Assembly: GCA_964489135.1 (NCBI GenBank)
Contig: CAZAXK010000004.1
Location: 1 to 40,133 of the forward strand
Direction of reading: 5' to 3'
DNA from: an uncultured Candidatus Saccharibacteria bacterium
Lineage (GTDB): Bacteria > Patescibacteriota > Minisyncoccia > Phycocordibacterales > WO2-35-19
DNA length: 40,133 nt
Position 1 is the stretch's first letter. Every line of letters begins with the position of its first letter. Both the position numbers and the translations under genes were made by a program. The notes beneath the pieces are model-generated. The model was not told the DNA's origin and searched no databases. It saw nothing but the letters and a program-made list of their open reading frames with translations. Positions 12,935-13,506 of this stretch are shown here, piece by piece.

Positions 12935-13042
12935 GCCAATGATAATAACTCAAGCCATCGCAAATGGCGAGAAGTCAAGACACAGGACAGACTTCCCTTC
13001 CTTGCAAATAGCGTTATGCTAACCACAGAAAGGGGGTGATCT

Positions 13043-13465
13043 ACGGACCCGTGGATCCCCGGACACTCAACGAGACATCACAGGAAACCTAAGAGTCTCG
13101 GTGGAGAGTCCTCGCCCGAAAATATCTCGATAGTTTTTCGGGGTAAGCACAGGGCATGGCACGCCCTGTTTGATAATTATTCTCCCCAGCAGATTGTTAA
13201 CGAACTGGACTTCTATTTTGCCTTCTTCTGCGGAGAGAACGGCGATCGGCACCACCACGGATGGAGGTGGAACCGACGGCGCACCGAGCAAAAAGCTCTG
13301 CGCGCCTGGAATTGCCTCTTTCGAGGCATGACCGGCGTACAAATTGCGGAGGAAGTAAGTACGGTCTGGCTAGACCCTGCTTACAAGCTCGAATACGTGG
13401 GCGACAGGTTCTTGCTCTCGGTCCGATCGCGGACCGACCACAGAGCGTGGATCCGAGTCGCCTAA
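13043..13465 (+). CDS. HNH-like (betabetaalpha-metal) protein, 140 aa, putative ACG start (not in ORF track)
   Basis: Uninterrupted frame 13043-13465 containing RHHRKPKSLGGESSPENISIVFRGKHRAWH; strong SD AAGGGGGTGATC; in-frame TGA two codons upstream; terminator follows. Confidence 0.75.
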   Translation, partial: TDPWIPGHSTRHHRKPKSLGGESSPENISIVFRGKHRAWHALFDNYSPQQIVNELDFYFAFFCGENGDRHHHGWRWNRRRTEQKALRAWNCLFRGMTGVQIAEEVSTVWLDPAYKLEYVGDRFLLSVRSRTDHRAWIRVA

Positions 13466-13471
13466 CCCCAG

Positions 13472-13506
13472 GAGGCGTGGCTCGCAAGCCCGCCTCTTTC
13501 CCTTTT
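13472..13506 (+). terminator. Intrinsic terminator after HNH-like ORF
   Basis: GAGGCG...CGCCTC stem with inner GCT/AGC pairs, followed by TTTCCCTTTT. Confidence 0.65.

What the first reader, a model, noticed from the sequence alone, without database searches (positions are those of the whole stretch)
13031..13506. Hidden HNH-like gene with an apparent ACG start codon
Seen: a 140-codon frame missed by the ORF track has HH-x6-GG-x5-N-x8-H-x3-H spacing. A near-perfect SD (AAGGGGGTGATC) places ACG at normal spacing, an in-frame TGA two codons upstream excludes any earlier start, and a terminator follows. The motif AWxxLFxxxxxxQIxxE occurs twice (AWHALFDNYSPQQIVNE; AWNCLFRGMTGVQIAEE), suggesting internal duplication. 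Established: ACG initiates weakly in bacteria, and low expression suits a toxic nuclease. Inference: either deliberate attenuation or a recent ATG>ACG inactivation. As a nuclease-like gene 150 bp from the tRNA-Asn repeat cluster, it is also a candidate helper for those repeats.
Basis: partly seen in the sequence, partly recalled or inferred. Interest (0 to 1): 0.65.

Follow-up and report, generated by a model that had tools for sequence, protein, structure and literature searches.

The report
HNH-like gene starting at ACG
A small nuclease-like gene that gene finders miss is real and under selection, and comparison with relatives suggests that it and many relatives begin translation at the non-standard codon ACG, placed behind an unusually strong ribosome-binding site.

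Summary
Window 13043-13465 (+) is an intact 140-codon frame with the exact spacing HH-x6-GG-x5-N-x8-H-x3-H. It has no in-frame ATG, GTG or TTG before codon 96, an in-frame TGA at 13037, and a terminator hairpin after the stop.

It is a real gene. dN/dS against a 69%-identical orthologue is about 0.06. Against two closer variants, 36 of 43 changed codons are synonymous.

It belongs to a large unnamed family (1363 cluster representatives) of small proteins. Their core is a predicted beta-beta-alpha fold that resembles the colicin E7/E9 HNH motif only below significance thresholds. The internal duplication is real (hhalign E 7e-13).

The ACG start is the main result. The sequence at 13027-13042 is the strongest anti-Shine-Dalgarno complement of 80,236 positions in the window. 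The same strong-SD, 2-6 nt, in-frame ACG layout occurs in 8 of 13 long-form loci checked, plus one closer variant. In several of these no canonical start can encode conserved N-terminal residues.

A recent ATG>ACG loss, an assembly error, an alternative genetic code and TGA readthrough are all disfavoured. The proposed role as helper for the tRNA-Asn repeats is not supported. Translation itself has not been shown.

The parts
13015..13020 (+). -10-like hexamer TATGCT (inferred promoter element)
   Evidence: A TATGCT, TATTCT or TACTCT hexamer sits 6-7 nt upstream of ACAGAA in the window, L001, L010 and L017. TATGCT also occurs upstream of the SD in L013 and L036. L010 and L017 have TTCACA-17 nt-TAYTCT (read from the sequence). 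This is inference only; no transcription start site is mapped.
13027..13041 (+). Extended Shine-Dalgarno AGAAAGGGGGTGATC
   Evidence: It matches 14 of 15 bases of the complement of a Bacillus-type 16S 3' tail, GAUCACCUCCUUUCU. It is the strongest anti-SD duplex in the whole window (-25.0 kcal/mol). It is conserved in L001, L010 and L017.
13043..13045 (+). Proposed ACG initiation codon
   Evidence: It lies 6 nt after the GGGGG core. It is the first in-frame codon but one after the TGA at 13037. The same SD-N2-6-ACG layout is found in L001, L010, L017, L019/L020, L021, L023, L036 and the X6 variant.
13043..13465 (+). Coding sequence, 140 codons plus TAA
   Evidence: Against L001, pN is 0.18 and pS 0.74, and 70 of 129 differences are at third codon positions. 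Against X5, 30 changed codons are synonymous and 6 non-synonymous; against X6, 6 and 1.
13067..13171 (+). HNH-like beta-beta-alpha core (residues 9-43: STRHHRKPKSLGGESSPENISIVFRGKHRAWHALF)
   Evidence: The AlphaFold2 model has mean pLDDT 88.7, with strands at residues 9-13 and 28-32 and a helix at 33-43. A family profile aligns to the colicin E7 motif [26 protein letters not shown]. Most of the top Foldseek hits are HNH nucleases; colicin E9 superposes at 0.9 A over 33 residues.
13145..13219 (+). Internal repeat copy 1 (KHRAWHALFDNYSPQQIVNELDFYF)
   Evidence: hhalign of segment 1 against segment 2 over 55 homologues gives E 7.2e-13.
13295..13369 (+). Internal repeat copy 2 (ALRAWNCLFRGMTGVQIAEEVSTVW)
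   Evidence: Short-form homologues carry a single copy.
13470..13507 (+). Intrinsic terminator hairpin plus T-rich tail
   Evidence: The hairpin folds at -19.3 kcal/mol (z -4.5). Equivalent hairpins follow the stop codon in L001 and L010.

Best explanation
Window 13043-13465 encodes a functional 140-residue protein. It belongs to a large, unnamed family of small HNH-like (beta-beta-alpha-metal finger) proteins found mainly in Paceibacterota (candidate phyla radiation) and in some phages.

It is a 'long form'. The catalytic-type core (HH...N...H...H) is followed by a partly duplicated helical module and a C-terminal WLDPxY beta-domain.

Translation most likely starts at ACG 13043. An exceptionally strong, extended Shine-Dalgarno sequence would anchor the 30S subunit so that this near-cognate codon sits in the P site. 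That should give low, tightly limited expression of a nucleic-acid-cutting or nucleic-acid-binding protein.

The SD-ACG arrangement is a conserved trait of many long-form members, not an accident of this genome.

Shown: the gene is real and under selection, the SD-ACG layout is conserved, canonical starts are absent, and the motif, predicted fold and duplication are present.

Inferred: initiation at ACG, low expression, nuclease activity, and the promoter.
For: 1. Coding and selection.
- Against L001, dN/dS is about 0.06.
- Against the closer X5 and X6 variants, 36 of 43 changed codons are synonymous and 37 of 48 substitutions are at third positions (P = 2e-7 and 5e-4).
- L010 against L017 gives pN/pS = 0.16.

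2. No canonical start is available.
- The window frame opens at 13040, and the first ATG, GTG or TTG is codon 96.
- The X6 variant reads AAAGGGGGGTCT-ACG-AGC-AAT-CCG-TGG, with neither an in-frame nor an out-of-frame canonical start.
- In L019/L020 and L023, the first ATG lies inside conserved N-terminal residues (RRRxNxPxDxTKHH; NGPxKMTxHH). These residues can only be encoded from the upstream SD-ACG.
- In L010, the only canonical start is a TTG 42 nt upstream, inside a putative promoter spacer.

3. Recurrence.
- The SD-N2-6-in-frame-ACG layout occurs in 8 of 13 long-form loci: window, L001, L010, L017, L019, L021, L023, L036.
- Four loci have ATG, TTG or GTG at the same spacing (L013, L015, L018, L024). 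Viral short forms do too, for example L028 with AAGGGGGTGttaa-ATG.
- L036 was predicted beforehand from the peptide 'KEVFT' and then confirmed in the DNA.
- ACG makes up only 5 of 27 Thr codons in the bodies of these genes.

4. SD strength. The site is the best of 80,236 positions in the window, while about 30 other window genes show no SD.

5. Not an artefact. Contigs from three runs are identical. TGA is an ordinary stop codon here. No Rfam family matches the region.

6. HNH-like nature.

7. ACG can initiate with Met in E. coli at roughly 0.1-1% of the AUG level (bioRxiv 10.1101/063800).
Against: - There is no direct evidence of translation or of the N-terminus.
- L001 and L017 have an in-frame ATG or GTG two codons upstream of the ACG, although it abuts the SD with zero spacing.
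- The window could be read as a 1-nt insertion after an ancestral GTG at 13036.
- The lineages are related, so the counts are not independent events.
- Two substitutions in X5 within 13027-13051 could not be read, so an ATG there is not excluded.
- The 16S rRNA tail of this organism is unknown.
- In L023 the spacing is only 2 nt.
- The one RNA-library contig (X6) extends upstream of the inferred -10 box and may be contaminating DNA.
- Every HNH database score is sub-threshold: Pfam 14.9 bits against a cut-off of 21.4; PDB profile E 0.03; Foldseek E 0.4.
Confidence: 0.68

Rival explanations
1. Young pseudogene. An ancestral GTG or ATG start at 13036 (aligned with the ATG of L001 and the GTG of L017) was put out of frame by a 1-nt insertion (GTG ATC[T] ACG). 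On this reading the ACG is merely the old Thr-3 codon and the gene is no longer expressed.
For: Removing one T gives GTG ATC ACG GAC CCG TGG = M I T D P W, which matches L001's M V T (A T) N P W. Under this model TGA 13037 is simply the out-of-frame reading of gGTGAtc.
Against: - The frame is intact over 140 codons with all family-invariant residues.
- Two closer lineages show overwhelmingly synonymous change. X6 certainly has no canonical start; X5 has the same SD-to-ACG length.
- L010 (GTA), L019, L023 and L036 also lack a usable canonical start at that place.
- 'GTG' is part of the anti-SD complement GGAGGTGATC, so it need not ever have been a start codon.
- A start codon abutting the SD with zero spacing is not a workable geometry (established knowledge).
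Confidence: 0.12
2. The gene is functional but is expressed by another route. Candidates are initiation at another near-cognate codon (ATC 13055 or ACG 13070), a +1 shift after initiating at GTG 13036, or readthrough of TGA 13037 from ATG 13016.
For: ATG 13016 is in frame with the ORF in the window (read from the sequence). Many family members start only 2-5 residues before HH, so a shorter N-terminus would be tolerated. AGGGGGUGAUCU loosely resembles the prfB shift site (own knowledge).
Against: - ATG 13016 lies inside the conserved TTATGCTA box. It is out of frame in L001 (20 nt from the ATG there) and in X6 (2 nt fewer).
- TGA is an ordinary stop codon in this window (11 of 43 long ORFs).
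- No slippery motif or conserved upstream ORF is present.
- ATC 13055 is not conserved (GTG in L001).
- Only the ACG is conserved at SD-appropriate spacing.
Confidence: 0.12
3. Artefact or non-coding feature. Either an assembly or sequencing error removed the start codon, or the GC-richer stretch is a structured RNA rather than a gene.
For: The region has a higher GC content (0.53-0.60) than its flanks (about 0.40). Its beginning, GGGGGUGAUCUACGG, loosely recalls a tmRNA 5' end (own knowledge).
Against: - The sequence is identical in contigs from three runs, at up to 21x depth.
- ARAGORN and Rfam find nothing in the region, even at E up to 10.
- The substitution pattern has codon periodicity.
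- There are hundreds of protein homologues.
Confidence: 0.03

Closest known systems
Colicin E7/E9 DNase HNH motif (His-Me finger nucleases)
   Same: The motif is nearly the same, residue for residue. The family reads HHRKPxSLGGxxxxxNISxVxxxxHxxxH; colicin E7 reads [30 protein letters not shown]. A beta-beta-alpha core is predicted, and colicin E9 superposes at 0.9 A over 33 residues with 36% identity.
   Different: The loop is one residue shorter. The rest of the colicin DNase domain, a translocation domain and an immunity gene are all absent. All scores are sub-threshold (E 0.03; Foldseek E 1.5). The last His is replaced by N or T in several family members.
Small stand-alone HNH endonucleases (Pfam PF01844; e.g. 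Gme HNH nickase 4H9D, phage HNH proteins)
   Same: Similar size, a single beta-beta-alpha-metal core, a basic N-terminal tail, and occurrence in both phage and cellular genomes.
   Different: There are no CxxC zinc-finger cysteines. The core is followed by a family-specific AWxxLF...EI..IN.vW(L/I)DPxY module, which is duplicated in long forms. The Pfam score is below the cut-off in all 55 members tested, and only 15 give any hit. No PADLOC hit, and only one weak PHROG hit.
Bacterial genes with conserved non-canonical start codons (infC AUU, pcnB AUU; IF3-sensitive initiation)
   Same: A near-cognate start codon conserved among orthologues, which implies selected low or regulated expression (own knowledge; discussion of IF3 in 10.1101/063800).
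   Different: The codon here is ACG. It is not among the start codons of translation table 11, nor among the annotated starts tabulated in 10.1101/063800. It is paired with a maximal SD. Dependence on IF3 is untested.
ACG initiation in eukaryotic viruses, and ACG-to-AUG editing in plant organelles
   Same: ACG stands where a start codon is needed (own knowledge; organelle examples appear among the hits).
   Different: Those cases rely on scanning ribosomes or on C-to-U RNA editing. Here the context is bacterial and SD-led, and the one RNA-library contig reads ACG unedited.

Membership tests
HNH / His-Me finger nuclease superfamily | Beta-beta-alpha core fold | tested here: met
   In the AlphaFold2 model (mean pLDDT 88.7, pTM 0.83) strands at residues 9-13 and 28-32 are followed by a helix at 33-43. 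This is a prediction, not a solved structure.
HNH / His-Me finger nuclease superfamily | Catalytic and metal-binding residues: His (general base) on strand 1, Asn, and His/Asn on the helix | tested here: met
   H12 and H13 are invariant, and N27 and H36 nearly invariant, in 55 long forms. H40 is present in the window protein but replaced by N or T in some members.
HNH / His-Me finger nuclease superfamily | Significant match to a curated HNH sequence model | tested here: not met
   PF01844 scores 14.9 bits against a cut-off of 21.4 (E 0.03). Fifteen of 55 members hit it, the best at E 0.002, all weak. NCBIfam gives no match.
HNH / His-Me finger nuclease superfamily | Significant structural match to a solved HNH nuclease | tested here: inconclusive
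   The best Foldseek hits against PDB are mostly HNH proteins (McrA, colicin E9, Cas9 HNH, Gme HNH), but E is 0.4 or higher. BFVD hits are likewise HNH proteins or uncharacterised short proteins, the best at E 2e-3.
HNH / His-Me finger nuclease superfamily | Metal-dependent nuclease activity | not testable with these tools
   This needs a biochemical assay.
Genes with a conserved non-canonical initiation codon | The same non-AUG/GUG/UUG codon at SD-appropriate spacing in orthologues | tested here: met
   ACG lies 2-6 nt after GGAGG-type cores in 8 of 13 long-form loci and in the X6 variant.
Genes with a conserved non-canonical initiation codon | No canonical start able to encode the conserved protein | tested here: met
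   This holds for the window, X6, L019/L020 and L023. It does not hold for L001 and L017, which have an in-frame ATG or GTG abutting the SD.
Genes with a conserved non-canonical initiation codon | Experimentally mapped N-terminus or initiation site | not testable with these tools
   No proteomic or ribosome-profiling data are at hand.
Homing endonuclease / mobile-element-borne HNH | Located inside an intron or intein, or flanked by element ends, with patchy presence among close relatives | tested here: not met
   The gene is free-standing, with its own terminator. Its position next to tRNA-Asn is conserved across lineages with saturated dS. By contrast, the L001 tRNA-Asn intron carries a different HNH ORF.
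Recoding (TGA readthrough/selenocysteine, or prfB-type frameshift) | Conserved upstream ORF and recoding signal | tested here: not met
   The frame of the upstream ATG 13016 is not conserved in L001 or X6. TGA is a normal stop codon in this window.

The most novel reading that the evidence does not exclude
ACG is the ancestral, selectively maintained initiation codon of a whole clade of HNH-like genes in Paceibacterota. It is always paired with a near-maximal Shine-Dalgarno sequence, in genomes whose other genes mostly lack one. To my knowledge, and in two phrase searches of the held paper library, no bacterial gene family with a conserved ACG start has been described, so this would be the first. 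It would act as a built-in device that keeps a potentially toxic nuclease at trace level or makes it sensitive to initiation fidelity (IF3). It would also mean that standard gene callers systematically miss or mis-start such genes.
Probability: 0.5. Interest if true: 0.8.

Novelty: new variant of a known kind. Interest (0 to 1): 0.7.

Why it matters
Bacterial annotation assumes ATG, GTG or TTG starts, plus a few rare ones; ACG is not in translation table 11.

This family appears to keep ACG across deep divergence even though one C-to-T change would make an ATG. That would be a natural example of selection for a very weak start codon compensated by a maximal SD. It could be tested directly with reporter fusions.

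It also shows concretely how gene callers handled these genes. One was omitted (the window). Others were truncated at an internal ATG (P0163, P0164). Others were extended upstream over the ribosome-binding site (P0145, P0165, P0075, P0157).

Finally, it defines an uncharacterised, widespread HNH-like family (at least 1363 clusters at 50% identity) with a repeated helical module.

Tried and rejected
- Structured RNA or tmRNA in the GC-richer stretch. ARAGORN and Rfam find nothing, at gathering threshold or at E up to 10.
- Alternative genetic code. TGA ends 11 of 43 long ORFs, and ORFs of 600-850 codons are unbroken.
- Assembly error. Contigs from three runs are identical.
- My own intermediate reading, a 1-nt insertion that destroyed a GTG start. 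I downgraded it after seeing X6, L010, L019, L021, L023 and L036.
- TGA readthrough from ATG 13016. That frame is not conserved.
- A hairpin sequestering the SD and ACG (13034-13060). It folds at -17.6 kcal/mol, but z is only -1.15, which is not significant.
- Defence-system membership. PADLOC gives no match.
- Two JGI metagenome scans for close relatives found nothing.
- The GTDB genome scan found only distant short forms.
- Reading the first 25 nt of the X5 contig failed, because differences near contig ends are not listed.

Full report
**1. The observation**

Window 13037-13468 translates as *STDPWIPGHSTRHHRKPKSLGGESSPENISIVFRGKHRAWHALFDNYSPQQIVNELDFYFAFFCGENGDRHHHGWRWNRRRTEQKALRAWNCLFRGMTGVQIAEEVSTVWLDPAYKLEYVGDRFLLSVRSRTDHRAWIRVA*.
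- The spacing HH-x6-GG-x5-N-x8-H-x3-H is exact.
- TGA lies at 13037-39, ACG at 13043-45 and TAA at 13463-65.
- The mechanical ORF list contains only the 45-aa tail that starts at ATG 13328. No ATG, GTG or TTG occurs in frame between 13040 and 13328.
- The hairpin at 13470-13498 folds at -19.3 kcal/mol (z -4.5) and is followed by a T-rich run.
- Contigs assembled independently from three sequencing runs (depth 21x, 6.6x and 2x) show no differences from the window. The two deeper ones span 12900-13707 and 12900-13753; the third gives fragments 13022-13172 and 13180-13330.
- TGA terminates 11 of the 43 long ORFs of the window, so the standard bacterial code applies.
- Rfam and ARAGORN find no RNA gene in the stretch.

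**2. It is a real gene under selection**

A 144-aa protein, P0001, is 69% identical over the full length. It sits in the same neighbourhood in three other metagenomes: VanY, a small basic ORF, this gene, then tRNA-Asn.
- Window against L001: pN 0.18, pS 0.74 (saturated), dN/dS about 0.06, and 70 of 129 differences at third codon positions.
- Two closer variants appeared when contigs of other runs were laid on the window. X5 is freshwater DNA at about 85% identity. X6 is a wastewater RNA-seq library at about 93% identity.
- Of the differences that could be read, 30 changed codons are synonymous and 6 non-synonymous for X5, and 6 and 1 for X6. Third-position excess gives P = 2e-7 and 5e-4.

**3. 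What the protein is**

A profile search of 1.84 billion cluster representatives finds 1363 relatives at E <= 1e-3 and 558 at E <= 1e-10.
- Most are 70-110 aa 'short forms' of the type HHRKPxSLGG..NIS.V....H.AWH.LF.N..p.EIa.eIN..WLDPxY.
- Many are 112-190 aa 'long forms' like the window protein. In these the helix after the core is followed by an inserted helical segment and a second AWxxLF....EI...IN.vW(L/I)DPxY module.
- Comparing the two modules as profiles over 55 long forms gives probability 97.8% and E 7e-13. The internal duplication is therefore real and old.
- The only names any source gives are 'hypothetical protein', and no Pfam domain is on record except DUF317 in two long proteins. 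Where the organism is named, it is Candidatus Paceibacterota or Niyogibacteria.
- Distant short forms occur in Acidobacteriaceae, Bryobacteraceae and Saccharibacteria and in eight IMG/VR viral contigs.

Evidence for an HNH relationship:
- Pfam HNH is the commonest hit but is always weak: 14.9 bits against a cut-off of 21.4 for the window protein, and hits in 15 of 55 members, the best at E 0.002.
- A family profile aligns to the colicin E7 DNase motif ([26 protein letters not shown]) at E about 0.03.
- An AlphaFold2 model (mean pLDDT 88.7, pTM 0.83) has strand 9-13, strand 28-32 and helix 33-43, which is a beta-beta-alpha unit. It continues with two helical hairpins and a small C-terminal sheet.
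- Foldseek returns mostly HNH nucleases at the top: McrA, colicin E9 (0.9 A over 33 residues), Cas9 HNH and the Gme nickase. None is significant (E >= 0.4).
- BFVD gives two uncharacterised marine-virus proteins and many HNH homing endonucleases.
- PADLOC and NCBIfam give nothing.

I therefore call it HNH-like on motif and local fold. The curated-model criterion for membership is not met, and activity is untested.

**4. The start codon**

My first comparison, with L001 (ATG GTT ACG GCC ACC AAT CCA TGG), suggested a 1-nt insertion. The window (GTG ATC T ACG GAC CCG TGG) would have lost an ancestral GTG or ATG start. Further loci changed that reading.

(a) The site AGAAAGGGGGTGATC (13027-13041) matches 14 of 15 bases of the complement of a Bacillus-type 16S tail.
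- It is the strongest anti-SD duplex of all 80,236 positions of the window: -25.0 kcal/mol, against -17.7 for the next unrelated site.
- The 'GTG' is part of that complement, so it need not be a former start codon.
- About 30 other genes of the window show no SD. Many instead have a TATAAT-like box 6-10 nt before their ATG.

(b) The same layout recurs:

| Locus | SD, spacer and start |
|---|---|
| L017 | ACAGAAAGGGGGTGCCT-ACG |
| L010 | ACAGAAGGGAGGTACCT-ACG (no canonical start nearby; the called TTG is 42 nt upstream) |
| L019/L020 | GAGGAGGTTCT-ACG |
| L021 | CCAGGAGGAATT-ACG |
| L023 | AGGAAGGAGGGT-ACG |
| L036 | AAGGAGGTATTT-ACG |
| X6 variant | AAAGGGGGGTCT-ACG |

L036 was predicted from the peptide 'KEVFT' before its DNA was read.

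(c) Four long-form loci have ATG, TTG or GTG at the same spacing: L013, L015, L018 and L024. So do viral short forms, for example L028 with AAGGGGGTGttaa-ATG. This shows that the SD is the working ribosome-binding site of this family.

(d) In L019 and L023 the first canonical ATG falls inside residues that are conserved and translated in relatives (RRRxNxPxDxTKHH; NGPxKMTxHH). The frame opens only just upstream of the SD, so nothing but the ACG can start those residues. The L019 start region is identical in a second sample that differs at 51 of 3039 positions.

(e) ACG accounts for only 5 of 27 Thr codons elsewhere in these genes. A merely conserved Thr would not stay ACG.

(f) On a rough neighbour-joining tree, ACG-start and canonical-start members are interspersed.

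The tally of DNA-verified long-form loci is: SD + ACG in 8 of 13, canonical start in 4, ambiguous in 1. The ambiguous locus is L022, which has an A7 run between an out-of-frame GTG and the motif.

ACG initiates with Met in E. coli at about 0.1-1% of the AUG level. It is absent from the annotated start codons of the model genomes surveyed in that study (10.1101/063800). Two phrase searches of the paper library found no report of a natural bacterial ACG start.

**5. Mechanism proposed**

A short leader is transcribed from a promoter whose -10-like hexamer (TATGCT, TATTCT or TACTCT) is conserved 6-7 nt upstream of ACAGAA. The extended SD pairs with the 16S tail and places ACG in the P site. The C-A mismatch at the middle codon position makes initiation rare and probably sensitive to IF3. 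The result would be trace expression of a small HNH-like protein with a basic N-terminal tail.

The conserved layout and the absence of alternative starts are shown. Initiation at ACG, low expression, the promoter and nuclease activity are inferred.

**6. Relation to the tRNA-Asn repeats**

The gene lies directly upstream of tRNA-Asn(GTT) in the window, L001/L002, L010/L011 and L017. This is one clade, marked by the motif WNRRR. No tRNA was found in the 14 other non-viral family loci scanned. The viral loci, L022-L027 and L036 were not scanned for tRNAs.

The gene ends in its own terminator. The tRNA has its own extended -10 box (TGCTAGAAT, 13563-13571), which is conserved in L001.

I see conserved synteny and no evidence for a helper role.

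**7. Verdict**

- The finding is real.
- The HNH-like call is reasonable but sub-threshold.
- The internal duplication is confirmed.
- The ACG start is supported by comparative evidence across many lineages.
- 'Recent inactivation' is unlikely.

The case is a new variant of known kinds (non-canonical initiation; HNH-type proteins). It is worth an experiment because a simple reporter test would decide it.

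Noticed in passing
window 13597-13693 (structured core 13601-13673): An element of about 70 nt just upstream of tRNA-Asn begins with a copy of the tRNA's 5' flank and acceptor arm (AATCATTCCGCGG; repeats at 13597-13614 and 13676-13693). It folds into a closed multi-stem structure at -39.2 kcal/mol (z -6.4). L001, L002 and L010 lack it. It may be a tRNA-like remnant or a small RNA.
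   Followed up: partly
window 13803-13820 and 13844-13854: Downstream of tRNA-Asn lie inverted partial copies of the tRNA's 3' acceptor and T arm (ACGGCTCCTGCGGGAGGA; TAGGATTCGAA). They look like att-site-type scars of elements that target this tRNA.
   Followed up: no
window 13504-13527: A perfect 12-nt tandem duplication, TTTATATACTCG x2, lies between the terminator and the tRNA promoter. The X5 variant lacks 12 nt in three gaps at 13511-13526.
   Followed up: no
L001 1899-2543: In the orthologous locus the tRNA-Asn gene is split after the anticodon-loop position by an insert of about 570 nt. The insert holds a 110-aa HNH ORF and a group I intron core (RF00028, 83 bits, E 2e-20). L002 encodes the identical neighbouring protein but has an intact tRNA-Asn, so the intron is polymorphic.
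   Followed up: partly
window, whole (starts listed): About 30 long ORFs show no Shine-Dalgarno motif. By eye, about a dozen have a TATAAT-like hexamer 6-10 nt before the ATG (for example at 15015, 16206-17429(-) and 32001-33347(-)). This suggests widespread leaderless mRNAs, and the strong SD of the HNH-like gene is the exception.
   Followed up: partly
L010 787-2481 (-): A 564-aa serine recombinase (Resolvase domain) ends within the 3' end of tRNA-Asn. This suggests an integrated element at this tRNA in that genome.
   Followed up: no
L022 350-430: This long-form homologue (P0261) was called from a TTG inside its SLGG motif. No canonical in-frame start precedes HH. A GTG after the SD is +1 out of frame, and an A7 run (A AAA AAA G) lies in between. 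This could be an indel error, transcriptional slippage or a -1 frameshift.
   Followed up: no
L017 (P0165): This orthologue carries changes at two otherwise near-invariant positions: HHPEP instead of HHR.P, and IDRRY instead of IDPxY.
   Followed up: no
window 11732-11893 (-): A small, very basic 53-aa ORF (core MAKRTTGVGNNKASRSRKTKKRLAIKSAKIAMRKKK) between VanY and the beta-lactamase-family gene is conserved in L001. It has no Pfam match.
   Followed up: no
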